The notes under the pieces: model-generated | What the model saw: the letters and a program-made list of their open reading frames with translations, nothing else | Told to the model about the DNA's origin: nothing | Database searches by the model: none | From: an uncultured Gammaproteobacteria bacterium | GTDB taxonomy: Bacteria; Patescibacteriota; Patescibacteriia; UBA9934 | DNA length: 38,365 bases | Assembly (NCBI GenBank): GCA_964644265.1 | Contig: CAZXUX010000002.1 | Span: 1-38,365 of the forward strand | Direction of reading: 5' to 3' | Part shown: piece by piece, positions 1,499 to 11,265 of the stretch | Layout: the number at the start of each line of letters is the position of its first letter | How positions within the stretch are numbered: position 1 is the first letter of the stretch | Translations under genes and position numbers: made by a program

Positions 1499-1545
1499 AA
1501 TCTGTGTAAATCCGTGAAAAAATCTGTGTAAAATCTGTGTTTAAA
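1499..1545 (+). promoter_or_regulatory. Three direct copies of an AATCTGTGTAAA iteron-like motif
   Basis: aatctgtgtaaa at 1499-1510 and 1521-1532, atctgtgtttaaa at 1533-1545. The same motif clusters at 31858-31974 and occurs once at 36911-36921. Confidence 0.5.
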
Positions 1546-1602
1546 AAGAAGAACCGGCCAATCGACGTCTCACTTTCGAGTGAGAGCAATCGATCGACCG
1601 GT
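1543..1602 (-). terminator. Compound rho-independent terminator of the 708-aa gene; also the left inverted repeat of the GC-rich cassette
   Basis: On the minus strand, outer stem accggtcgatcgatt/cgtcgattggccggt encloses hairpin tctcact-cgaa-agtgaga and is followed by tcttcttttt. It lies 16 nt after the stop at 1618. Confidence 0.6.
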
Positions 1603-1617
1603 CAGAGCCGAACCGCG

Positions 1618-3744
1618 CTACTTGTTGGCGATTGCGGCGTTCTGCAGCTCGGGGTGCCTGGCGAGCACCTCGGGCGGGAGCTTTGCCGTGCAGTCGCAGG
1701 GGAACGTGTCGGGGTTGAGCTTGCACACGGTGCCCGGCGAGAGCTCCTGAGCACGTTCGTGCTTGGAGATCTTCGCCTGGTACTCGTAGCAGACCCGTTC
1801 CCGAACGGTGAGCGGGACGTCGATGGCCTTGGCGGTCTCGACCACGGCCTTCTCGCTCGCGCCGCGGGCCAAGGTGACGGTCTGAGCGACCGCCACGTCA
1901 CCCATGACAGCGTGAGCCGCGTACGAGGTGCCGCCAACGCCGATTCCGAGAGTCAGCAGCAGCGCCGCCAACACAGAACCGGCGGTGATCATGCCCTTCA
2001 ACGCGCGCCGTCGGAAGTCGACCGAGAGCAGGCGACGATCGTCGTGCTCGGAGGTCAGGTTCCACCCCCGCACATACAGCTCCCCGACCATGAGGACGAG
2101 GAACCCGGCGGAGGCGAAACAGACCGAGACGAAGATGTTTCCCCGCCCGATCAGCATCCAGACGTTGCCAGCAGCGGCAACGACCGTGGAGACGATGGTG
2201 ACCGTCAGCGCCCGTTGGCGCAGGAACGACACCGGCTCCTTCTGCTGGACGAGGTCTTCGACCGCAGCGGTCGAGCTTCGCTCTCTGAGCGGAAGCCCGC
2301 CCAACTTCCTGAAGTAGTTGCCGATGTCGAGCCCCGTGCCTCCGATGAGGCCGGTGCCGTCAGCCGGATCCAGGAAGTTCTTGAGCTTCTTGAACAGGGT
2401 CGGGACCCCGTCCAAGGCAACGATCAGCAGCCGCGACACGCAGATGCCGACGATGCCCGCGTTGAGCCAGAAGTAGCTCCCGTCCCTGAACCCCCACAGA
2501 AGGGTGGCCAGGCCGGATAAACCAGCGAAGCCAACCAGACCCATGAACAGGATCACGTAGAGGATCGGCAGACCCAGGAACACCAGGCCGATGATCCAGA
2601 ACGCGACGGTCCTCGGCCACGAGGGCTCGGTGATCAACTTCGGTGCTGCCTCGAGCCAGCCAGTCAGCTTGTTGCGGAAGCTGGCACGTCCGGCGGCCGT
2701 TGACGAGTCGTCGATCCAGTCGCGGGCCGTCAGCGCCATGTAGAGCGGCGTCGAGATCTTGTCGCGTGCTTCCGCACGGAGCAAGACCTCGAACGGAGCG
2801 AAGATGTCGATCACGTCCTCGACGCAGTCGAGGTACCTCCGACGCTGCGCGTGCAGGGGGTGATCGCCGTCGATCGCGACGTTGGAGCGCTCCAGCCACT
2901 GCAGCGCCTCGATGCAGTCGGGGAACTTGTCCTCGTCGGGAGGCTCGATGTCCGACAACGCCTTGAGCGCGGCCGGGCACACGTTCAACCGTTCCAGCGC
3001 CGCCTTCAGGGCGTGCGGCTGGCGCGGCCGATCGATCTTGTCCTCGAGCCGGGCGTTCAGGATGCGCCAGAACAGCGCCAGCTTCCGCTGGTCGTCCGGG
3101 CTCATGGAGCCGAAGTCGACCTTGCTCGGCTTCGCGGTGTTGTCGATCTCGACGACGCCGTGTTTGCGCCATTTCGGGAAGCAGTCGGGGCACAGGGTAA
3201 CCCAGCCATCCTCGATGGCATCCTTGTCCCATTCGATTACCGACAGCAGGTTATGCATCTCCACTCCCTTCGGGAGTTGGGTGGAGCAACCTTTACGGTG
3301 AATCGTCCGACTTACCGGATCCTTCCAACCGTTCTTGTCCTCCAAGTCCTGCTCGACCTTGGCCTGGCTTGCCGCCAGGGGATCCCGCACCACGACCTCG
3401 ACCTCTTCCGCGGTCTTCGCGTTCTCGATCATGCGCCTCATGCCATCCGGCAAGCCGCGCAGCATCGGGGGAACAGCGAACCGAAACAGGTAGGGCAACT
3501 TGTGGTTGCGTTCGATCGCCTCTGCCAGCATCATCGCGGCACCGACTCGCATCGGCTCCGGGATGTTGAACAGGATGCGGGCGATCGTGCCAGCCGTGGT
3601 TTCCTTGGTCAGGAGCACGGCGGGGTTGATCTGAGCCAGGAGTGCTTCGAAGCCCTCCTCGGACATCTCGCGAACCACGTCGGCAATGAAGCCGATACCC
3701 TTGTTTTCGAGCGCCTCGGAAGAGGACAAAGCGTAACGAGCCAT
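1618..3744 (-). CDS. Hypothetical large polytopic membrane protein (ORFan). Soluble N-terminal ~380 aa with a Cys/His cluster (HRKGC...CPDC), then >=7 TM helices, then a Cys-containing C-terminal tail
   Basis: Long GC-rich ORF. Start moved to ATG 3742-3744 because GGAGG lies 6 nt upstream (ggaggccaccATG). No family recognised by eye. Confidence 0.75.
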   Translation of the reverse strand: MARYALSSSEALENKGIGFIADVVREMSEEGFEALLAQINPAVLLTKETTAGTIARILFNIPEPMRVGAAMMLAEAIERNHKLPYLFRFAVPPMLRGLPDGMRRMIENAKTAEEVEVVVRDPLAASQAKVEQDLEDKNGWKDPVSRTIHRKGCSTQLPKGVEMHNLLSVIEWDKDAIEDGWVTLCPDCFPKWRKHGVVEIDNTAKPSKVDFGSMSPDDQRKLALFWRILNARLEDKIDRPRQPHALKAALERLNVCPAALKALSDIEPPDEDKFPDCIEALQWLERSNVAIDGDHPLHAQRRRYLDCVEDVIDIFAPFEVLLRAEARDKISTPLYMALTARDWIDDSSTAAGRASFRNKLTGWLEAAPKLITEPSWPRTVAFWIIGLVFLGLPILYVILFMGLVGFAGLSGLATLLWGFRDGSYFWLNAGIVGICVSRLLIVALDGVPTLFKKLKNFLDPADGTGLIGGTGLDIGNYFRKLGGLPLRERSSTAAVEDLVQQKEPVSFLRQRALTVTIVSTVVAAAGNVWMLIGRGNIFVSVCFASAGFLVLMVGELYVRGWNLTSEHDDRRLLSVDFRRRALKGMITAGSVLAALLLTLGIGVGGTSYAAHAVMGDVAVAQTVTLARGASEKAVVETAKAIDVPLTVRERVCYEYQAKISKHERAQELSPGTVCKLNPDTFPCDCTAKLPPEVLARHPELQNAAIANK

Positions 3745-3928
3745 GGTGGCCTCCATCCCTACGCCTTACGGGCAGGGAGAATGGGTTGTTTTCTCTAGTA
3801 ACCTAGATTGTTAGAGAACGTGCTCCAAAAGGCCATCCTCCTTCGCTAAAGCTACGGAGGACATGCACTTCAGAACGTGGAACTATAGCATTTTTTGGCC
3901 AAAAAGTCAATTGCTCTCTATTGGGCTC

Positions 3929-4768
3929 TCATAACCCACCTGGAACAACGACAAGAGAAGATTGTAGATATGTTAGCGGATTTCTAAACATTTGAGGAGT
4001 GTTAATGCGTGCCTCTATTTCCCACAGGAGTTGTGGCAGGTGTTCTTTCCAGACATGGTGATAAGTTCTTCTAATGTGGCGTTTAAGAATAGACCAGATA
4101 CCCTCGATCCTATTAGTCGGTCCAAAGACGAATTTAGAGTGGTTGCAAGCCTCATGGATGTAGCCGAAGAACTCATCTATACCCTCGTAACATGTGGCAC
4201 TATCCGTGTAGACCGTTGAGCCTTCGTTGATATGCTCCAGTAGAAACCTGTCGGTAGTTCCCTGGCTTCTATTTGGCACTATTCTGAGAATCACTTTCTC
4301 CTCTTCTCGACACCATGCTCCAAGCACAATTCTCTGGTTCTTGTACCGTCTCCTGCCCACAAACGACTCATCTACCTCGACCTCTCCTAGGAATTTCTCT
4401 GGTGAAACATAGACAAGATGACGACGAAAGCGCCCATACCAGCGTCTTACTGTGATGATGGACACAGAAGCCATACTGGAGGCTGCAGGCAGCGTGTATT
4501 GAGCCTGCCAACACTGTAGAAGGATCCAGATCTGTCGCAATGAGAGTTTGGTGCAACCAAGCCAGGAAACTGAGAAAAGACTGAATGGTCGACGACACTT
4601 AGGGCACCGATACCGCGCTTCCGACTGCTTTATATGGCTAGTACCACAGCGCGGACAAAACACACGTTTTCCAAAGGTTGCATGACGGAAAAGTGAACGC
4701 AACTTGGCGTTTGAGGGAACCTCATCTATTCTAAACATATGGAACAGCTCGATTGAAGAGTAAAGCAC
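3929..4768 (-). CDS. IS1595-family (ISXO2-like) DDE transposase with N-terminal zinc ribbon
   Basis: CPRCG...CPKCRR zinc ribbon. Motifs VEVDESFVG, VYTDSATCY and ACNHSKFVFGPTNRIEGIWSILKR match the IS1595 DDE transposase family. Confidence 0.9.
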   Translation of the reverse strand: MLYSSIELFHMFRIDEVPSNAKLRSLFRHATFGKRVFCPRCGTSHIKQSEARYRCPKCRRPFSLFSVSWLGCTKLSLRQIWILLQCWQAQYTLPAASSMASVSIITVRRWYGRFRRHLVYVSPEKFLGEVEVDESFVGRRRYKNQRIVLGAWCREEEKVILRIVPNRSQGTTDRFLLEHINEGSTVYTDSATCYEGIDEFFGYIHEACNHSKFVFGPTNRIEGIWSILKRHIRRTYHHVWKEHLPQLLWEIEARINTPQMFRNPLTYLQSSLVVVPGGL

Positions 4769-4811
4769 TTCAATCTTACCGCTGTTCCATTTGGTTTCTA
4801 AAAGCCCTCTA

Positions 4812-4830
4812 TTGGCCTTTGGCTATTGGC
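4812..4830. repeat. Three phased TTGGC heptamers upstream of the transposase start
   Basis: TTGGC at 4812, 4819 and 4826 (7-nt period). Same array type as at 9727-9761 and 20629-20647. Confidence 0.6.
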
Positions 4831-5039
4831 TTTTAGAAGTTGTCTGGGGTAGCTAGTCTTAGCTAAATTGGCTAATATTAGCAAAATAATGCTATTATGA
4901 GGCTTGACAGGATGGGGAAAATATGCTATTGTTAAGTGTTACTAGGTAGGGCAAAAGTAACTTAGTTAGGCCTTGCCAGTAGCTAGTGTCTTTCACAACC
5001 AACCACCCCGACGCTACGGTCGGGGTACAGGAGGTGCCA

Positions 5040-5747
5040 ATGCGCACCATCGTCATGCTGTTCGGCCTGTTCTGCCTGGTGCTCCTCGGCGCCCCCGCCT
5101 TCGGGCAGGAGGCGCCCACGCCGACGGCGGAGGAGTTCCGCCAGCAGGCGGAGACCTTGAAGCTGATCGCCGACGCCAAGGCTCAGCTCGCCGCCCTCGA
5201 GGCGGCCAAGGTGGCCGAGCCGGTGCACGTCAACAGCCCCCGCCGGCACCACGTCTACGTGGACGCCTGCGGGGTACAGATCCTGAACCAGCCGGCCAAT
5301 GGTCGGCACACGGAGAGGATGATGGCGCAGAGCAACGACTGCGCCCGCACCCAGGTCGCCCAGACCGACGCCGACACCCGACGGGTGGAGGTGCTCGACC
5401 GCGGAGACCAGGGAGACACGATGACCGCGGCCATGGCTGCGGCCATCGTGGACAGCAAGGGCGCCGCCAACACCTACGCGGACACCCAGAACGGGCAGTA
5501 CGCAACGGGCGCGGCGGCCGTCCAGGCCGCCCGAGGCTTCAACAGCTTCGACGGATCCAGCTTCAACGGCTGGGTCGAAGGCCAGGCCTGGGCCAACCAG
5601 CTGCTGAACGGCAGCGCTCCCGCGCCGGCACCCGTGGTCACCAACCAGGCGCCGGCGCCCAAGAAGGTCGTCACCGTCCCCTCCACCCCCACCCCGAGCG
5701 CCAAGGACAAGGCCGACAAGGCCCTGGCCGACGCGCTCAAGGAGTGA
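5040..5747 (+). CDS. Hypothetical secreted protein (Ala/Pro-rich, ORFan)
   Basis: GGAGG 5 nt upstream of ATG 5040. Signal peptide MRTIVMLFGLFCLVLLGAPAFG/QE. GC-rich codon usage. Confidence 0.7.
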   Translation: MRTIVMLFGLFCLVLLGAPAFGQEAPTPTAEEFRQQAETLKLIADAKAQLAALEAAKVAEPVHVNSPRRHHVYVDACGVQILNQPANGRHTERMMAQSNDCARTQVAQTDADTRRVEVLDRGDQGDTMTAAMAAAIVDSKGAANTYADTQNGQYATGAAAVQAARGFNSFDGSSFNGWVEGQAWANQLLNGSAPAPAPVVTNQAPAPKKVVTVPSTPTPSAKDKADKALADALKE

Positions 5748-5749
5748 GC

Positions 5750-6289
5750 ATGTTCCACCTGTTCACGTTCGTGGTCCTGTTCTTCATCGGCTCGGCCTAC
5801 GCGGTCGACCCGACGGCGCCCCTCGCACCCGGCACGTTCGTGCTCGGGAGCCTGCCGCCGGACATGAGTCCGAACTGCAAGGAGGGCGTCAACAAACGCC
5901 CGTACTTCATCTCGCCAACCGTCGTCGGCGTGGCCACCCACCAGGTGTGGGACGGCAAACCTCCGAACGAAGGTGGTCACATGGTGGTGATCCGGCAGGG
6001 TGATAAGCTCGTGCCGGTCATTCCCGCAGCGGCAGTCCTCAAGCGGGATAGCAGCGGCAAGCCGATCGAAACGGATCCAGTGCGCTTTTGGTACTGCCTG
6101 AGCGCGACCAGGGTCAACTTCGGTGGCACGGTCCTCTCGGGGCCGAACAACAATCCCGTGACGGATGGTCCCGTCACTCTCTACCTGGGTGAGTTTCACG
6201 AAGTAGGGGCCTGCGGCAACATCTTCGTCGACCAGGCCGATCCGCGCCACAGCAGCGTGGAGTTCAACTCCACGCGCTGCGGGCCCTGA
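5750..6289 (+). CDS. Hypothetical secreted protein, 4 Cys (ORFan), translationally coupled to 5040..5747
   Basis: GGAG overlaps the upstream stop (ggagTGAgcATG). Signal peptide MFHLFTFVVLFFIGSAYA/VD. It is the in-frame tail of spurious track ORF 4973..6289. Confidence 0.7.
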   Translation: MFHLFTFVVLFFIGSAYAVDPTAPLAPGTFVLGSLPPDMSPNCKEGVNKRPYFISPTVVGVATHQVWDGKPPNEGGHMVVIRQGDKLVPVIPAAAVLKRDSSGKPIETDPVRFWYCLSATRVNFGGTVLSGPNNNPVTDGPVTLYLGEFHEVGACGNIFVDQADPRHSSVEFNSTRCGP

Positions 6290-6312
6290 CGAGCCCAAAC
6301 CAATCGTCACGC

Positions 6313-6352
6313 ACGGCCGGATCTTTCATGATCCGGCCGTTCTTCTTTTTTT
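6313..6352 (+). terminator. Rho-independent terminator; also the right inverted repeat of the GC-rich cassette
   Basis: cggccggatc-tttcat-gatccggccg followed by ttcttcttttttt, 24 nt after the stop at 6289. Confidence 0.8.
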
Positions 6353-6403
6353 ACGCGTTGTCTCTACCGCGAGTCATCTCGACGTTAAGGAGAGATCTTT
6401 CAG

Positions 6404-7057: not shown

Positions 7058-7090
7058 GTAATAAAAAAGACTCCCGTGAGAGAGTCTTGC
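7058..7090 (-). terminator. Rho-independent terminator of the pilin-like operon
   Basis: Minus strand reads aagactc-tctcacgg-gagtctt followed by ttttttatt, about 15 nt after the stop at 7106. Confidence 0.75.
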
Positions 7091-7105: not shown

Positions 7106-7489
7106 TTACCCTGTGCCTGTTGCGGTGGTGAGTTGTTCGATGACGAAACTTGAGATGGCGTAGGCAGAGAGCAGGATTACTAGACCAACAACCGAGGTGG
7201 TCATGATGCCCCTGGCTGTCTTTACCTTGCCGTCATCGCCAGCGGCGGTCATCCAGAGGAAACCGGCGTAGATGATGAGAACCAAGAAAATGATACCCAG
7301 CAAGCCGAGGAACACGTTGATCAAAGTACCGATCGTCTGTTCCAATGGCTGGTTGCCGAAGCCGGCGGTATCGTTTACGTCTTCAAGCGCTCCGGTGATG
7401 TCTACCTGCGCATTGGCGCGAGGCGCGACTAAACCGCTAAGAGGTAGAGCCAGCAACGCTGTGCCGACCAAAAGGTGTTTCAGTTTCAT
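7106..7489 (-). CDS. TrbC/VirB2-like 'T4SS pilin' family small membrane protein (paralog 6)
   Basis: Signal peptide MKLKHLLVGTALLALPLSGLVAPRANA. Shared core LINVFLGLLGIIFLVLIIYAGFLWMTAAGDDGKVKTARGIM..GLVILLSAYAI (two TM helices around a short charged loop). Start trimmed to M14. Confidence 0.8.
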   Translation of the reverse strand: MKLKHLLVGTALLALPLSGLVAPRANAQVDITGALEDVNDTAGFGNQPLEQTIGTLINVFLGLLGIIFLVLIIYAGFLWMTAAGDDGKVKTARGIMTTSVVGLVILLSAYAISSFVIEQLTTATGTG

Positions 7490-7558
7490 AATAGGCATTT
7501 GATTTGTTAAAAGTATACACGACTCCACTGCTAACTCATTTAACTAGTGTGCATAGGT

Positions 7559-7939
7559 TTATATCCCCGTCCCTGTAGTTGCCACACCAAGAGCACCGAC
7601 AATGAATTCGGCGATGGCGTAGGCAGAGAGCAGGATTACTAGACCAACAACCGAGGTGGTCATGATATTCTTAGCTGTCTTTACCTGGCCGTCATTGCCA
7701 GCGGCGGTCATCCAGAGGAAACCGGCGTAGATGATGAGAATCAGGAAAATGACGCCGATGAGACTAAATAGAACATTGATCAATGTACCAATAATTACAG
7801 CAAGGTCGGTTTGTGCACCAGGACCATAGGAAGCCTTCCCGGCATCATCAAGGCCGGTATCAAAGACTTGTGCAGCCACCGCTCCCGGAGCGGCCGTTAG
7901 TACTAGCAGAAAAAAACTGAGAGCTATTTTTTTTAACAT
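7559..7939 (-). CDS. TrbC/VirB2-like 'T4SS pilin' family small membrane protein (paralog 5)
   Basis: Same core (IIYAGFLWMTAAGNDGQVKTAKNIM). Start trimmed to M12 (ATG 7937-7939), which removes the overlap with the upstream gene. Confidence 0.8.
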   Translation of the reverse strand: MLKKIALSFFLLVLTAAPGAVAAQVFDTGLDDAGKASYGPGAQTDLAVIIGTLINVLFSLIGVIFLILIIYAGFLWMTAAGNDGQVKTAKNIMTTSVVGLVILLSAYAIAEFIVGALGVATTGTGI

Positions 7940-7943
7940 AAAA

Positions 7944-8318
7944 CTAAGCGCCGGTAGCTGGAGAGAGCGCATTAATTACCGTATTGGTAATTACGTAGGC
8001 CATGGCCATCAATACTGCCCCGGTTATCGAAGCGATCAAAATATCTTTCGCGTGCTTTACCCGGCCTGAGTCACCCTGCGAGGTCATCCAAAGGAATCCG
8101 GCGTAAACGGTAAGTACCAAGAAGATAAGTCCGGTCAAGCCCAAAACGGGTGCGATGATATAGGTTCCGATAAAGGTAGCAATATTGAGATCGCCCGGGG
8201 TACCAAAGACCTCATCACCGGTGGCTGTTAAGCCACTGGAATCAGCATTGAACTGCGCCAAAGCCATGCCAGGCAATAATAGCTGTATGGCGATAGCCAG
8301 AGCGACCAGTTTTCGCAT
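7944..8318 (-). CDS. TrbC/VirB2-like 'T4SS pilin' family small membrane protein (paralog 4)
   Basis: Signal peptide MRKLVALAIAIQLLLPGMALA. Core VYAGFLWMTSQGDSGRVKHAKDIL. Confidence 0.8.
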   Translation of the reverse strand: MRKLVALAIAIQLLLPGMALAQFNADSSGLTATGDEVFGTPGDLNIATFIGTYIIAPVLGLTGLIFLVLTVYAGFLWMTSQGDSGRVKHAKDILIASITGAVLMAMAYVITNTVINALSPATGA

Positions 8319-8388
8319 AGTGCAGGCCCCCACTTCGCTCTAAGTCTGCAACCTAGAGCTACGTTGGGGGTCCTCAGCGTGAGAAAAC

Positions 8389-8784
8389 CTATTGAGTAGC
8401 TTCGATGAGCGATGAGATGACGAAGCTAGCAATGGCGTAGGCGGACAAGATGATTGCCAAGCCAATGATGCCGGCAATAATCAGACGCTTTGCTTCTGCC
8501 ACCTTCTCATCATTACCGCCAGCTACCATCCACTTAAAGCCACCGTACAAAATGATGACTACCGCGATTACACCCAAGAAACCAAGGGCGACGCGAATGA
8601 GCTGACCAATGGTGTCCTGAAGATCTGCCTGACCGAGTCCGGTGGTGTCACCGAAATTCGAGTTCAGAATGTCTTCTGCCTCAAGCGGTTGGGCGTGGAC
8701 AATGGGCGACAAGCGAACGAAGGGCAAGACAAGTGCCAAGCCTAGAGCGACGCTGACGCCAAAACGAATGAGTTGCTTCACCAT
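8389..8784 (-). CDS. TrbC/VirB2-like 'T4SS pilin' family small membrane protein (paralog 3)
   Basis: Signal peptide, then core ILYGGFKWMVAGGNDEKVAEAKRLI..GLAIILSAYAI. Confidence 0.8.
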   Translation of the reverse strand: MVKQLIRFGVSVALGLALVLPFVRLSPIVHAQPLEAEDILNSNFGDTTGLGQADLQDTIGQLIRVALGFLGVIAVVIILYGGFKWMVAGGNDEKVAEAKRLIIAGIIGLAIILSAYAIASFVISSLIEATQ

Positions 8785-8825
8785 AGTGAAAAGTTGAATT
8801 AAATACTTCTAAAATTGTATCACGC

Positions 8826-9194
8826 CTAAGGCGCGGTAGTGGCACTGCCTGTGGTCAAGGCTTGGATAACTGCGTTAACCACCACATACGAAGCGGCAAT
8901 CATGGCCAAGCCGAGCACTGCCCAAACCAAAATCTTCTTACCTTTATCAATCCTAGCCGACTCCCCCATCGACGTAATCCAGAGCACTCCGCCGTAGACG
9001 AACATAAGAAGAGCAATAGAACCGACCACGGAAAGTATGGCTTGAATGAGGCGACCAATTAGCAGACGGGGGTCGGTAGCCTCTGGGCCTGAACCCAAGG
9101 GATTGATTAGCTCGACTGCTTTGACGGCGTGCGGTAAAGCGCCAAGCAAGGCGATGGCTAAGTAAGCCGAAAAGTATGACAAATATCTATTCAT
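8826..9194 (-). CDS. TrbC/VirB2-like 'T4SS pilin' family small membrane protein (paralog 2)
   Basis: Signal peptide, then core FVYGGVLWITSMGESARIDKGKKIL..GLAMIAASYVV. Start is 2 nt after the upstream stop. Confidence 0.8.
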   Translation of the reverse strand: MNRYLSYFSAYLAIALLGALPHAVKAVELINPLGSGPEATDPRLLIGRLIQAILSVVGSIALLMFVYGGVLWITSMGESARIDKGKKILVWAVLGLAMIAASYVVVNAVIQALTTGSATTAP

Positions 9195-9196
9195 AA

Positions 9197-9697
9197 TTAA
9201 GGACTGAGCGAATCTGTATTGTCTTGAGCGTTATTTATGGTGTCGTTGATCGTTCCGGCTGGCCTATCGCCGGCGACAGAGGCGATCACGAAGTTCATAA
9301 TTGCGTACGCGCCCAAAACTAAAGCCAAGCCGATAATGGCGTTTACTACGGTTTGTTTACCTCGATTAACGCGCTCTGGATCACCTTCTGAGGTAATCCA
9401 GACAAATCCACCATAAACAAACATAAGTAAAACTACCGAGCCGATAATGCCCAAGATGCCGGTGCTGATGTTTACAAAAATCTGAAGCACTTGATCAACT
9501 GAACACTGACCAGAATCCCGACACGGGCAGTCAGTAGAAGTGCAGTCTGGCATGTTGGCGAAAATCAAACCGTTATCCATGATTGACTGATAGCCGCTCT
9601 CGACGTCTGACTGTGCAAATACTGGCACTGCACTGAAAAAAAAGAGTGACAAAAAAGCGCTGGCTAGAACTATGGTTAACGCCAAGCTGCGGAACAT
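9197..9697 (-). CDS. TrbC/VirB2-like 'T4SS pilin' family protein, Cys-rich variant (paralog 1, first gene of operon)
   Basis: Signal peptide. Insert CTSTDCPCRDSGQCS. Core FVYGGFVWITSEGDPERVNRGKQTV..GLALVLGAYAI. Extra polar C-terminal tail. Confidence 0.8.
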   Translation of the reverse strand: MFRSLALTIVLASAFLSLFFFSAVPVFAQSDVESGYQSIMDNGLIFANMPDCTSTDCPCRDSGQCSVDQVLQIFVNISTGILGIIGSVVLLMFVYGGFVWITSEGDPERVNRGKQTVVNAIIGLALVLGAYAIMNFVIASVAGDRPAGTINDTINNAQDNTDSLSP

Positions 9698-9705
9698 ATG
9701 GCGTT

Positions 9706-9714
9706 AGTATAGCA
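9706..9714 (-). promoter_or_regulatory. Extended -10 (TGCTATACT) 8 nt upstream of the pilin-operon ATG (leaderless-type)
   Basis: Minus strand reads tgctatact-aacgccat-ATG. No Shine-Dalgarno. Confidence 0.5.
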
Positions 9715-9726
9715 CGTGCGTTTATT

Positions 9727-9866
9727 TTGGCCGTTGGCTTTTGGCTGGTGGCCATTGGCCGTATACATTGCGATGCAGCCTTTAGCCGTTAGCCTTTTAC
9801 ATAGCCGTTAGAATTTAGCTATTAGCTCCTGTACGCTCAGATGAGCCGCCAACAGCCAAAGGCCAA
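9727..9866. repeat. Inverted arrays of phased TTGGC heptamers flanking TTAGC heptamers
   Basis: ttggccg|ttggctt|ttggctg|gtggcca|ttggccg (9727-9761). TTAGC units at 9782-9828. Inverted ccgccaa|cagccaa|aggccaa (9846-9866). Arms ggccgttggcttttggctg / cagccaaaggccaacggcc can pair (19 bp, 1 mismatch). Confidence 0.8.
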
Positions 9867-9885
9867 CGGCCTCGCAATATATGCG

Positions 9886-11265
9886 CTAGTATGTTTCCGA
9901 CACTGCGTCAGCGGCCTTCTCGATGGCTTCTACTGGGTCGGCGCCAGACAAAACCTCGTCGGTAAAGGCATTTAGCGCAGCCTCGGCAACGTCGGCATCG
10001 CTGCCCTTGTACCAGCTTTCGGCGGTCAAAACCTGTTCAACGGCCGAACCGATCTGCTCGTCGTTCAACTGACTATTTATTAGACCGCGCAAAGCAGTTG
10101 GTTTATTTGCTTGCTCTAAATAGGAAACAACTTGTTCTTGAGAGGTAGCAAACTGCACAAAATCCCAAGCGTAATCTTGGTGCTTACTAGACTTAGACAC
10201 GCTTTCTACCCAGTAATTAGCGAAATTAACCTGCTTGCCGCCAGCAATCTGCGGAACTTTGCTTATTGAGTAATCAAGCCGCGGCGCAGCAGCCTCTAGC
10301 AATGGAATGTGGTAGCTATAGCCAAAGAAGAAGGCGGTTTGACCGTTAGCGAAAGCCTCAAAGGAATTTGGGAAGGTGTCGTTCCAGGTATAAACGTCCT
10401 TAATCGGGTTGGCGAAATCGGTCAAAAAGCGAGCTGCGTCTAGCCCGGGGAAAATTTCTCGCGGCAGGCCATCGGGAATGGTGTGAAAGGCTACTCGGCC
10501 ACGCTCGTCGGTCATTTCTGTACCGTTCTGCAGCATCAACAAAGACAAAATGTCTGAAGACCGCTCAACATTGGCCGACGTCCCAAGAGCTGCAGCCGAT
10601 TGACTAATACCGCCCTGATCGTTGTAAACCGTAATGGCTCTAACAGCACTCTGAAAATCATCCCAGGTGACTGGCGCAGCTGCTACGCCGGCGGCATCGA
10701 GCAAGTCCTTGTTAGCAAACAAGACCAAGCTATCGACCGAGAGAGGCAGGCCGAAGATGCGCTTTTCTGGGTCTAACTTAGGATCAGGACGATAGTTGCG
10801 AATGACGTCCGAAGCCACGACATCGACAAAGCGCTCTTTTAGGGCTTTTTCGCTCAACGTTGGTTCGACACGCTCAACTAAGGTGGTCTCTTTGCGAATA
10901 GTTCCCTTGGTCTCTAAGTATGCAACGTTGACCGATGGCGGCATGGGCGCCATTAAACTTTCGAATTCACCAATCTTGGTGTTGTGGACCGAAAACATAT
11001 CCGGCCCCTTGCCTTCAGCAATTGCCCGCACTAATTCGCCTTCGTATTCATCTGAGCGCAGTTTGCGGTAGTGAATAACAATGTTCGGGTGTAAAGCCTC
11101 GTAGGCATCGATAATATCTTTAAAAGTATCGTCCTCGTCGTAAACGCGCCAATAGTCAAGGGTGATTTCTTCTATGTTAGACGTTGTGCCGCCGCCAAAA
11201 CAACCGGCGCCAAACGACAGAAGGAGGAGCAGAGACAAGGCGCGCAGGCCGAATTGCTTGGTCAT
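9886..11265 (-). CDS. ABC-transporter-type extracellular solute-binding lipoprotein (sugar-type)
   Basis: Lipobox LLSFGAGC. Size and overall pattern fit family-1 solute-binding proteins. No permease or ATPase gene adjacent. Confidence 0.7.
   Translation of the reverse strand: MTKQFGLRALSLLLLLSFGAGCFGGGTTSNIEEITLDYWRVYDEDDTFKDIIDAYEALHPNIVIHYRKLRSDEYEGELVRAIAEGKGPDMFSVHNTKIGEFESLMAPMPPSVNVAYLETKGTIRKETTLVERVEPTLSEKALKERFVDVVASDVIRNYRPDPKLDPEKRIFGLPLSVDSLVLFANKDLLDAAGVAAAPVTWDDFQSAVRAITVYNDQGGISQSAAALGTSANVERSSDILSLLMLQNGTEMTDERGRVAFHTIPDGLPREIFPGLDAARFLTDFANPIKDVYTWNDTFPNSFEAFANGQTAFFFGYSYHIPLLEAAAPRLDYSISKVPQIAGGKQVNFANYWVESVSKSSKHQDYAWDFVQFATSQEQVVSYLEQANKPTALRGLINSQLNDEQIGSAVEQVLTAESWYKGSDADVAEAALNAFTDEVLSGADPVEAIEKAADAVSETY

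What the first reader, a model, noticed from the sequence alone, without database searches (positions are those of the whole stretch)
7106..9697. Six tandem TrbC/VirB2-like pilin paralogs with conserved membrane core and hypervariable exposed N-regions
All six consecutive minus-strand genes encode proteins of about 120-165 aa. Each has a cleavable signal peptide, a variable ~30-60-aa segment, and the conserved two-helix core (hydrophobic helix, YAGF/YGGF-x-W-M/I-T, G-x-D/E loop, AK/GK, second helix ending AYAI). This is the architecture of conjugative/T4SS pilins (TrbC/VirB2) and of the 'pilin' family widely annotated in CPR genomes. No VirB4, VirB6 or VirD4 genes are in the window, so the array is uncoupled from an obvious secretion machine here. 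The first gene is a Cys-rich variant (CTSTDCPCRDSGQCS) with an extra tail. The variable parts look like diversification of a surface-exposed epitope or adhesin. The intergenic spacers 8334-8388 and 8785-8825 could allow differential expression, and 8334-8388 contains a ~10-bp stem (aggcccccac/gttgggggtcct).
Basis: partly seen in the sequence, partly recalled or inferred. Interest (0 to 1): 0.6.

Follow-up and report, generated by a model that had tools for sequence, protein, structure and literature searches.

The report
Ordered six-pilin operon of Patescibacteria T4SS
Six neighbouring genes in this ultrasmall (Candidatus Uhrbacteria-like) bacterium encode VirB2-type secretion-pilus subunits, a kind of array already published for this phylum; the six are old, fixed-order subunit types rather than freely varying copies.

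Summary
Six co-oriented genes (7106-9697, minus strand) each encode a signal peptide, a variable N-region and a two-helix core. All six pass the Pfam cut-off for PF18895 (T4SS_pilin). The refutation test fails: the genome has a chromosomal monoderm-type T4SS on contig C20 (PrgI/VirB3, TrsD-like, polytopic VirB6 candidate, and virB4 cut by the contig end), plus two coupling-protein-like ATPases.

Such arrays are already published for Patescibacteria: 441 arrays of 2-11 genes (PMC12102498) and an essential pilin series in Southlakia epibionticum (PMC10633639). This scan has also noted them on other DNA (1,221 notes). This is therefore a new member of a known kind.

What I add:
- The six genes are six ancient types in a fixed order. 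T1, T2 and T3 form a conserved head; T4-T6 form a tail of variable copy number.
- N-regions are paralog-specific, not hypervariable.
- A covarying RNA structure follows T3 and reaches into the first codons of T4.
- An orphan solute-binding lipoprotein gene precedes T1 in most arrays.
- T5 carries a gene-conversion tract from T6.

I infer that T3 is the major pilin; this is untested.

The parts
9886..11265 (-). Orphan solute-binding lipoprotein gene (SBP_bac_1, 459 aa, L-x-G-A-G-C lipobox-like N-terminus). It is the conserved upstream partner of the pilin array.
   Evidence: Pfam SBP_bac_1 at 91.5 bits. A homologue lies directly upstream of the first pilin in 44 of 64 arrays, often with overlapping stop and start codons. 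No ABC permease (PF00528) was found in the 95%-complete genome.
9698..9885 (-). Promoter region of the array. It holds the extended -10 box TGCTATACT at 9714-9706, 8 nt before the T1 ATG. Upstream lie TTGGC-type repeats and a 24-nt inverted repeat (9729-9752 / 9848-9871).
   Evidence: The box is found at 9 sites against 2.9 expected by chance. The inverted repeat I1 is 92% complementary.
9197..9697 (-). Pilin type T1 (166 aa). It has a 28-aa signal peptide, a 44-aa N-domain with four Cys (C-x6-C-x-C-x6-C), the hairpin core and a 19-aa hydrophilic tail. It is the first gene of most arrays sampled (49 of 64).
   Evidence: PF18895 41.2 bits and PF04956 29.7 bits. The orthologue clade has 100/99 support. 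In a 462-sequence tree, 56 of 61 T1 sequences fall in one clade.
8826..9194 (-). Pilin type T2 (122 aa). Its short N-region carries the motif L-I-N-P-L-G...D-P-R.
   Evidence: PF18895 37.3 bits. The clade has 93/93 support. N-region identity among orthologues is 60%.
8814..8822 (-). Extended -10-like box TGATACAAT in the T2-T3 spacer; candidate internal promoter for T3.
   Evidence: A box of this type lies before T3 in all six genomes of the genus. The pattern is enriched in the window.
8389..8784 (-). Pilin type T3 (131 aa), the most conserved type and the candidate major pilin.
   Evidence: PF18895 40.6 bits. The clade has 100/100 support. Core identity among orthologues is 78% and N-region identity 61%. 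The AF2 model shows helices at 55-87 and 92-130 with pLDDT above 90.
8308..8391 (-). Intercistronic structured RNA. The outer helix pairs the bases right after the T3 stop (AGUUUUC) with codons 2-4 of T4 (GAAAACU).
   Evidence: MFE -34.5 kcal/mol, z = -3.6. Across 16 genomes 89.7% of cells are paired against 74.7% in shuffles (0 of 500), and 10 of 13 pairs show compensatory changes. Across 64 arrays the 70 nt after T3 fold at -22.5 kcal/mol, against about -10 after other internal genes. No Rfam family matches.
7944..8318 (-). Pilin type T4 (likely start ATG at 8318, giving 124 aa; the longest ORF starts at 8333).
   Evidence: PF18895 27.0 bits. The orthologue alignment starts at M-R-K-L.
7559..7939 (-). 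Pilin type T5 (likely start ATG at 7939, giving 126 aa; the longest ORF starts at 7972). Its core was recently converted by T6.
   Evidence: PF18895 31.2 bits. Its core is 72% identical to T6 of the same genome but about 50% to T5 orthologues, with runs of identical codons. The direct repeat 7154-7333 / 7613-7792 is 86% identical.
7512..7519 (-). -10-like box (TG)TATACT before T6; candidate internal promoter. It lies inside the over-long ORF call of T6.
   Evidence: A TAnAnT box, with TG directly before it or one base upstream, lies before T6 in all six genomes of the genus.
7106..7498 (-). Pilin type T6 (likely start ATG at 7489 or 7498, giving 127-130 aa; the longest ORF starts at 7528).
   Evidence: PF18895 38.6 bits. 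NF045849 (Mycoplasma ICE pilin-like) scores 46.3 against a cut-off of 40.
7067..7088 (-). Intrinsic-terminator-like hairpin with a U-rich tail. It closes the operon 18 nt after the T6 stop.
   Evidence: 9-bp stem followed by TTTTATTACT. Across 64 arrays, hairpins after the last gene have mean MFE -21.2 kcal/mol and median z -3.08.

Best explanation
The region is the pilin operon of the chromosomal, monoderm-type (MPF-FATA-like) type IV secretion system that most Patescibacteria carry.

Shown:
- Six genes of the PF18895 / VirB2-like family. Each encodes a cleavable signal peptide, an extracytoplasmic N-region and a two-helix membrane hairpin.
- The T4SS genes lie elsewhere in the genome.
- The six genes are six old types in a fixed order. 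T1 (Cys-rich N-domain plus tail), T2 and T3 form a conserved head. T4-T6 form a tail whose copy number varies from 2 to 9 between lineages.
- An orphan solute-binding lipoprotein gene usually precedes T1.
- A covarying RNA structure follows T3 and pairs with the first codons of T4.
- A terminator-like hairpin follows T6.

Inferred:
- The pilins are inserted by Sec and cut by signal peptidase I. They wait in the membrane with both ends outside and the loop in the cytoplasm.
- The VirB4/VirB6 machine extracts them and polymerises them into a surface filament or stalk, in which the N-regions and C-tails face outward.
- T3 is the major subunit. It has its own -10 box, it is the most conserved type, and the hairpin after it would stabilise or end its transcript and gate T4 translation.
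- T1 and T2 are low-copy specialist subunits (tip or adaptor).
- T4-T6 are the host-facing, faster-evolving subunits.
For: Family membership: all six above the Pfam cut-off; NF045849.

Architecture.

T4SS in the genome:
- PrgI at 40 bits.
- TrsD-like N-domain hit.
- the virB4 fragment is found in 19 of 19 genomes of the genus.
- the full-length orthologue scores 98.9 bits on P-loop_TraG and matches PDB 4AG5 at E = 8.7e-48.
- the VirB6 candidate has 8 TM-like segments.

Old types: clade supports 100/99, 93/93 and 100/100; 56 of 61 T1 and 59 of 62 T3 in single clades.

Fixed order. Thirty of 42 arrays run T1, T2, T3, then tail, against 0.2 expected from shuffles.

RNA element.

Promoter boxes and terminator.

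SBP linkage.

Literature: PMC12102498 (arrays of 2-11 VirB2-like pilins), PMC10633639 (essential pilin series within the S. epibionticum T4SS cluster) and PMC12857230 (six divergent VirB2-like pilins; potential to elaborate pili).
Against: - No T4SS pilus has been seen in any patescibacterium.
- The array lies more than 100 kb from virB4 in this genus.
- virB4 of this genome is incomplete in the assembly.
- The fold search could not tie the hairpin to solved VirB2 or TraA pilins (best E = 0.9), and a sequence profile found none.
- The VirB6 candidate has no profile hit.
- The roles assigned to T1-T6, including T3 as major pilin, rest only on conservation, position and RNA signals.
- The type HMMs came from one genus, and the 80 loci are related, not independent.
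Confidence: 0.75

Rival explanations
1. The six genes are interchangeable alternative pilins kept for antigenic or host-range variation. This is what is proposed for the VirB2 paralogs of Bartonella and Anaplasma, and it is what the first reader and PMC12102498 suggest. Any one of them could build the filament, and diversity is the point.
For: - Paralog N-regions share only 16% identity.
- Tail copy number ranges from 2 to 9.
- T4-T6 N-regions are the least conserved among orthologues, at 31-39%.
- There is a gene-conversion tract between T5 and T6.
- G006 has a T2 duplication and G007 a fused double T5.
Against: - T1, T2 and T3 are single ancient clades with conserved N-motifs and a fixed order across Uhrbacteria, Magasanikbacteria, Paceibacteria and others.
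- Orthologue N-regions of T1-T3 are nearly as conserved as the cores: 48/58, 60/61 and 61/78%.
- No invertible segments or silent cassettes were seen.
- The rival can hold at most for the T4-T6 tail.
Confidence: 0.15
2. The proteins are not pilus subunits. They are two-helix membrane modules of an envelope complex built around the orphan solute-binding lipoprotein, such as a surface receptor or uptake scaffold. That complex would act independently of the T4SS.
For: - The array is tied to the SBP gene rather than to virB4.
- The genome has no ABC permease, so the SBP needs another partner.
- The same PF18895 hairpin also sits at the N-terminus or in the middle of large surface proteins of 431-3073 aa, where it looks like an anchor.
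- No T4SS pilus has been visualised in this phylum.
Against: - In S. epibionticum the pilin series lies inside the T4SS cluster and is essential like the machine (PMC10633639).
- In 1,135 of 1,948 assemblies a pilin gene is near virB4 (PMC12102498).
- The family relates to TrbC/VirB2 and to a Mycoplasma ICE pilin-like protein.
Confidence: 0.1

Closest known systems
VirB2-like pilin arrays of the Patescibacteria chromosomal T4SS (PMC12102498; the S. epibionticum ML1 essential pilin series, PMC10633639 and PMC12857230)
   Same: - Same Pfam family (PF18895).
- Same phylum.
- Tandem array of divergent paralogs: six here and six in S. epibionticum.
- Same monoderm-type T4SS (VirB4 of the FATA kind, TrsD, PrgI/VirB3, polytopic VirB6-like protein).
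- T4CP-like ATPases encoded elsewhere.
   Different: - Here the array is 122-157 kb from virB4, while in S. epibionticum it is inside the cluster.
- The fixed type order, the T3-T4 RNA element and the SBP partner are not mentioned in the 2025 survey (term search).
- Whether the S. epibionticum six correspond to T1-T6 was not tested.
TrbC/VirB2 conjugative pilins of diderm T4SS (PF04956; A. tumefaciens VirB2, RP4 TrbC, F TraA)
   Same: Signal peptide, two hydrophobic helices joined by a short charged loop, and small size. T1 passes the PF04956 cut-off.
   Different: - The mature proteins are about 100-140 aa with a 18-44 aa N-extension.
- The host is a monoderm.
- There are six types instead of one.
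- They are not encoded in the machine's cluster.
- No structural or sequence link to solved pilins could be shown.
- Cyclisation and lipid binding are unknown.
Mbov_0395 family pilin-like conjugal transfer protein of Mycoplasma ICEs (NCBIfam NF045849)
   Same: T6 scores 46.3 bits against a cut-off of 40. T3 scores 38.3 and T1 34.4 over the whole 80-position model. The host is also a wall-poor monoderm with an MPF-FATA system.
   Different: It is a single gene on a mobile element that does conjugate. Here there are six chromosomal genes, and no relaxase search was done in this genome.
Major-subunit genes of fimbrial operons followed by an intercistronic stem-loop (for example papA in the pap operon; from general knowledge, not tested here)
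   Same: A strong hairpin directly after one subunit gene inside a multi-subunit operon would give that subunit's mRNA a stable 3' end and lower expression of the downstream genes.
   Different: The protein family and the machine are unrelated. Here the outer helix also covers the first codons of the next gene, and no expression data exist.

Membership tests
PF18895 T4SS_pilin / Patescibacteria VirB2-like pilins | Profile match above the curated cut-off | tested here: met
   All six score 27.0-41.2 bits against a cut-off of 26.6.
PF18895 T4SS_pilin / Patescibacteria VirB2-like pilins | Signal peptide followed by a two-helix hydrophobic hairpin with a short charged loop | tested here: met
   Three hydrophobic segments in each protein. 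AxA|Q cleavage sites. The AF2 model has helices at 55-87 and 92-130 with pLDDT above 90.
PF18895 T4SS_pilin / Patescibacteria VirB2-like pilins | A T4SS (VirB4 plus partners) in the same genome | tested here: met
   PrgI at 40 bits. A TrsD-like protein. The N-terminal 125 aa of virB4 sit at the C20 contig end. The orthologue is a true VirB4: 4AG5 at E = 8.7e-48 and P-loop_TraG at 98.9 bits. The rest of virB4 is missing from the assembly.
PF18895 T4SS_pilin / Patescibacteria VirB2-like pilins | Assembles into an extracellular filament in a T4SS-dependent way | not testable with these tools
   This needs microscopy or proteomics. It has not been shown for any member of the phylum in the papers read (PMC11665869, PMC12857230).
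TrbC/VirB2 (PF04956) conjugative pilins | Profile match above the curated cut-off | tested here: inconclusive
   T1 scores 29.7 against a cut-off of 27.9 and passes. T3 scores 17.6 and falls below. The other four give no hit.
TrbC/VirB2 (PF04956) conjugative pilins | Fold like solved VirB2 or TraA pilins | tested here: inconclusive
   Foldseek against the PDB gave only generic helical hairpins, with best E = 0.9. A profile against PDB sequences found nothing.
TrbC/VirB2 (PF04956) conjugative pilins | [quoted passage not shown] | tested here: not met
   No T4SS gene is in the window. In four congeners virB4 is 122-157 kb away on the same contig.
Antigenically varying VirB2 paralog sets (Bartonella or Anaplasma type) | Lineage-specific turnover of paralogs without stable orthology | tested here: not met
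   T1-T3 are stable orthologue clades in a fixed order. Only the T4-T6 tail shows turnover and conversion.

The most novel reading that the evidence does not exclude
The operon encodes a heteropolymeric T4SS filament with division of labour, and this design is ancient in Patescibacteria. An orphan sugar-binding lipoprotein would act as its ligand or host-glycan sensor or cargo receptor. T1 and T2 would be tip or adaptor subunits. T3 would be the major subunit. A covarying RNA gate would tie T4 translation to T3 and so set the stoichiometry. The expandable T4-T6 tail would tune host specificity.
Probability: 0.25. Interest if true: 0.65.

Novelty: new member of a known kind. Interest (0 to 1): 0.38.

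Why it matters
The T4SS and its pilin series are essential for the epibiotic life of the one genetically tractable patescibacterium, and reviews call their role completely unknown.

This window adds no new kind of system. The comparative results do turn 'six divergent pilins' into testable roles:
- a candidate major subunit (T3);
- two conserved specialist subunits (T1 and T2);
- a variable tail (T4-T6);
- an RNA element that should set their ratios;
- a conserved solute-binding partner.

They also suggest that VirB2-like pilins are not foreign to monoderm (FATA-type) systems, because the family also matches a Mycoplasma ICE pilin-like protein.

Tried and rejected
- Pfam VirB4 (PF03135) and TrbL/VirB6 (PF04610) found nothing in this genome. 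PF03135 also found nothing in 30 relatives. That model is insensitive to this lineage, and the VirB4 was found by other routes, so this does not show absence.
- The AAA_10 and DUF87 hit on C11 is an FtsK-like protein next to recA, not a VirB4.
- The C16 (862 aa) and C10 (676 aa) ATPases are TrwB/TraD-like coupling proteins, not VirB4.
- No contig end carries the rest of virB4.
- The fold search and the PDB profile search were uninformative for a 75-aa hairpin.
- The idea that the post-T3 hairpin is a canonical terminator was rejected: only 5% have a U-tract by my crude rule. Only 11% of end-of-operon hairpins have one either, so a terminator role is not excluded.
- SBP-pilin fusions were looked for and not found in my 64 arrays.
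- I did not test whether Saccharimonadia arrays hold the T1-T3 types.
Full report
**Observation**

Six co-oriented minus-strand ORFs fill 7106-9697. I number them T1 to T6 in the order of transcription: T1 is 9197-9697, T2 8826-9194, T3 8389-8784, T4 7944-8333, T5 7559-7972 and T6 7106-7528. The alignment shows the conserved core with invariant Y, G, W and G residues. Each protein has three hydrophobic segments, a signal peptide and two helices, and an AxA|Q-type cleavage site. T1 carries four Cys in a 44-aa N-domain and a 19-aa hydrophilic tail, and both are conserved in the genus. Orthologue alignments and the position of a -10-like box indicate that T4, T5 and T6 start at internal Met codons (8318; 7939; 7489 or 7498). 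This removes the apparent T4/T5 overlap.

**Family**

All six pass the Pfam gathering score for PF18895 T4SS_pilin (27-41 bits against 26.6). T1 also passes TrbC/VirB2 PF04956. T6 passes NCBIfam NF045849, a pilin-like protein of Mycoplasma ICEs. A homologue search with T3 found 1,682 proteins at E <= 1e-5. Some are already named 'pilin [Patescibacteria group bacterium]', and the nearest named organisms are Candidatus Uhrbacteria. An AlphaFold2 model of T3 gives a confident helical hairpin at 55-87 and 92-130. Foldseek and a PDB profile search could not link so small a hairpin to solved pilins specifically.

**Is there a machine?**

The genome is 956 kb in 79 contigs and 95% complete. It holds 10 PF18895 hits. 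The Pfam VirB4 and VirB6 models find nothing here, and the VirB4 model finds nothing in 30 relatives either.

A weak hit of a Mycoplasma VirB4 model led to the start of contig C20. That contig carries, on the minus strand:
- a 970-aa polytopic protein with 8 TM-like segments, the VirB6 candidate;
- a 526-aa protein;
- PrgI/VirB3, at 40 bits against a cut-off of 27;
- a TrsD-like protein;
- the first 125 aa of a gene that runs off the contig.

All 18 other genomes of the genus have the full 640-655 aa orthologue of that last gene. The G014 copy scores 98.9 bits on P-loop_TraG and matches the solved VirB4 structure 4AG5 at E = 8.7e-48. An M23 peptidase and a weak VirB8-like protein lie beside it there. 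The remainder of virB4 is not in this assembly. Two further ATPases, on C16 and C10, are TrwB/TraD-like coupling proteins. This fits the roughly two T4CP homologues per genome reported in PMC12102498. The array is indeed far from the machine: 122-157 kb in four congeners where both lie on one contig.

**Already known**

PMC12102498 reports 441 arrays of 2-11 VirB2-like pilin genes in 383 Patescibacteria assemblies, with mean identity of 25%. PMC10633639 shows that the pilin series of S. epibionticum is essential. PMC12857230 counts six divergent pilins there. PMC11665869 calls the role of the system completely unknown. The scan's own notebook holds 1,221 notes of this kind on other DNA.

**What the comparison adds**

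*Orthology.* The array is syntenic in five well-assembled congeners. A tree groups the genes by type, not by genome: T1 has 100/99 support, T3 100/100 and T2 93/93. The only local changes are a T2 duplication in G006 and a fused double T5 in G007. N-region identity among orthologues is 48, 60, 61, 39, 31 and 33% for T1 to T6, against 16% among paralogs. Cores are 49-78% against 41%.

- Sixty-four loci hold arrays of at least four small pilin genes.
- T1 is the first gene in 49 of these 64.
- Of the 42 arrays that hold T1, T2 and T3, 30 are perfectly ordered T1, T2, T3, then tail. Within-array shuffles give 0.2 on average, with a maximum of 3 in 2,000.
- Head copy numbers are mostly 1-1-1, and the tail holds 2-9 genes.
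- An HMM-independent tree of the 462 small pilins in those arrays puts 56 of 61 T1 sequences and 59 of 62 T3 sequences in single clades. T2 splits.

*Gene conversion.* In this genome the T5 core is 72% identical to T6 but about 50% identical to T5 orthologues. It has long runs of identical codons, and its N-region is untouched.

**Non-coding signals**

The box TGnTAyAmT occurs at 9 sites in the window against 2.9 expected, including before T1 and T3. All six genomes of the genus have a -10-like box before T3 and before T6. A terminator-like hairpin follows T6.

Across 64 arrays the 70 nt after T3 fold as strongly as the ends of the operons: mean -22.5 kcal/mol, median z -3.35, and 70% with z < -2. 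After T1, T2 and tail genes there is no signal: about -10 kcal/mol and z near 0.

In 16 genomes the T3-T4 junction forms an outer helix between the bases just after the T3 stop and codons 2-4 of T4, around variable GC-rich inner stems. There, 89.7% of cells are paired against 74.7% in shuffles (0 of 500). Ten of 13 pairs show compensatory changes, and slid controls fall to 36-59%. No Rfam family matches.

**Partner gene**

A homologue of the window's SBP (9886-11265) lies directly upstream of T1 in 44 of 64 arrays. Of the other 20, 14 are arrays at a locus edge, and several of those have an extra pilin before the SBP. Three more are overlapping ORF calls. The stop and start codons often overlap. 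The genome has no ABC permease, so the SBP is an orphan. The 2025 survey does not mention an SBP or a hairpin.

**Interpretation**

The family, the architecture, the presence of the machine, the orthology, the order, the RNA structure and the SBP linkage are shown.

The rest is inferred:
- membrane insertion and signal peptidase processing of the pilins;
- extraction and polymerisation by the VirB4/VirB6 machine;
- T3 as the major subunit, with the hairpin acting as a transcript stabiliser or attenuator and as a gate on T4 translation;
- T1 and T2 as specialist subunits;
- T4-T6 as the faster-evolving host-facing subunits.

The rival 'free antigenic variation' fits at most the tail. The rival 'SBP-centred membrane complex unrelated to the T4SS' is not excluded, but the S. 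epibionticum data speak against it.

**Limits**

- The type HMMs come from one genus.
- The loci are related to one another, not independent.
- The RNA alignment was made by MAFFT.

**Verdict**

This is a real and correctly read feature of a published kind, with some new comparative detail. Interest is moderate to low.

Noticed in passing
G000:C13:5716-16727 (outside the window); also G000:C27:2544-3839 and G000:C73:1827-3206: The PF18895 pilin hairpin also occurs fused to large surface proteins. One case is a 595-aa protein (pilin plus Big_5 Ig-like domains) directly followed by a 3,073-aa giant with an N-terminal pilin domain. This ~600-aa protein plus a much larger neighbour recurs in ten other loci (for example L033, L040, L054, L087). 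Two Cys-rich proteins of 431 and 459 aa carry the hairpin in the middle. These may be pilin-anchored adhesins.
   Followed up: partly
G000:C20:1-6197 (outside the window): The T4SS cluster sits at a contig end and virB4 is cut after 125 aa. The missing part is not on any other contig end.
   Followed up: yes
G000:C16:4345-6933 and G000:C10:6194-9833 (outside the window): There are two TrwB/VirD4-like ATPases. One (862 aa) is fused to a ~430-aa membrane-anchored N-domain. At the other locus that N-domain is a separate 533-aa gene directly upstream of the ATPase. This is a split/fused paralog pair of unknown role, far from the T4SS cluster.
   Followed up: partly
window 7106-7528, 8389-8784 and 9197-9697: The pilins match NCBIfam NF045849, a pilin-like protein of Mycoplasma ICEs, and T6 scores above the cut-off. 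This suggests that VirB2-like pilins are native to some monoderm MPF-FATA systems. Recent papers state that such systems lack them outside Patescibacteria (PMC12102498, PMC12857230).
   Followed up: no
window 1500-6400: A GC-rich stretch (0.58-0.69 against about 0.50 for the genome) with overlapping ORFs on both strands and an IS1595-family transposase (3929-4768) lies just beyond the array's terminator. The flank on this side differs between congeners. It is likely a foreign island or a variable region.
   Followed up: no
window 9727-9871: TTGGC/TTAGC-type short repeats and a 24-nt inverted repeat (9729-9752 / 9848-9871, 92% complementary) lie between the SBP gene and the first pilin gene. 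This may be an operator-like region.
   Followed up: no
L009:2930-3634 (G007): One congener has a 234-aa ORF holding two complete pilin hairpins in tandem, a fused double type-5 pilin.
   Followed up: partly
L013, L015, L019, L021-L024 and many other loci: Many public MAG records that carry these Patescibacteria-type SBP-pilin arrays are titled 'uncultured Gammaproteobacteria bacterium', and one 'Acutalibacteraceae'. These are probably wrong taxonomic labels in the records.
   Followed up: no
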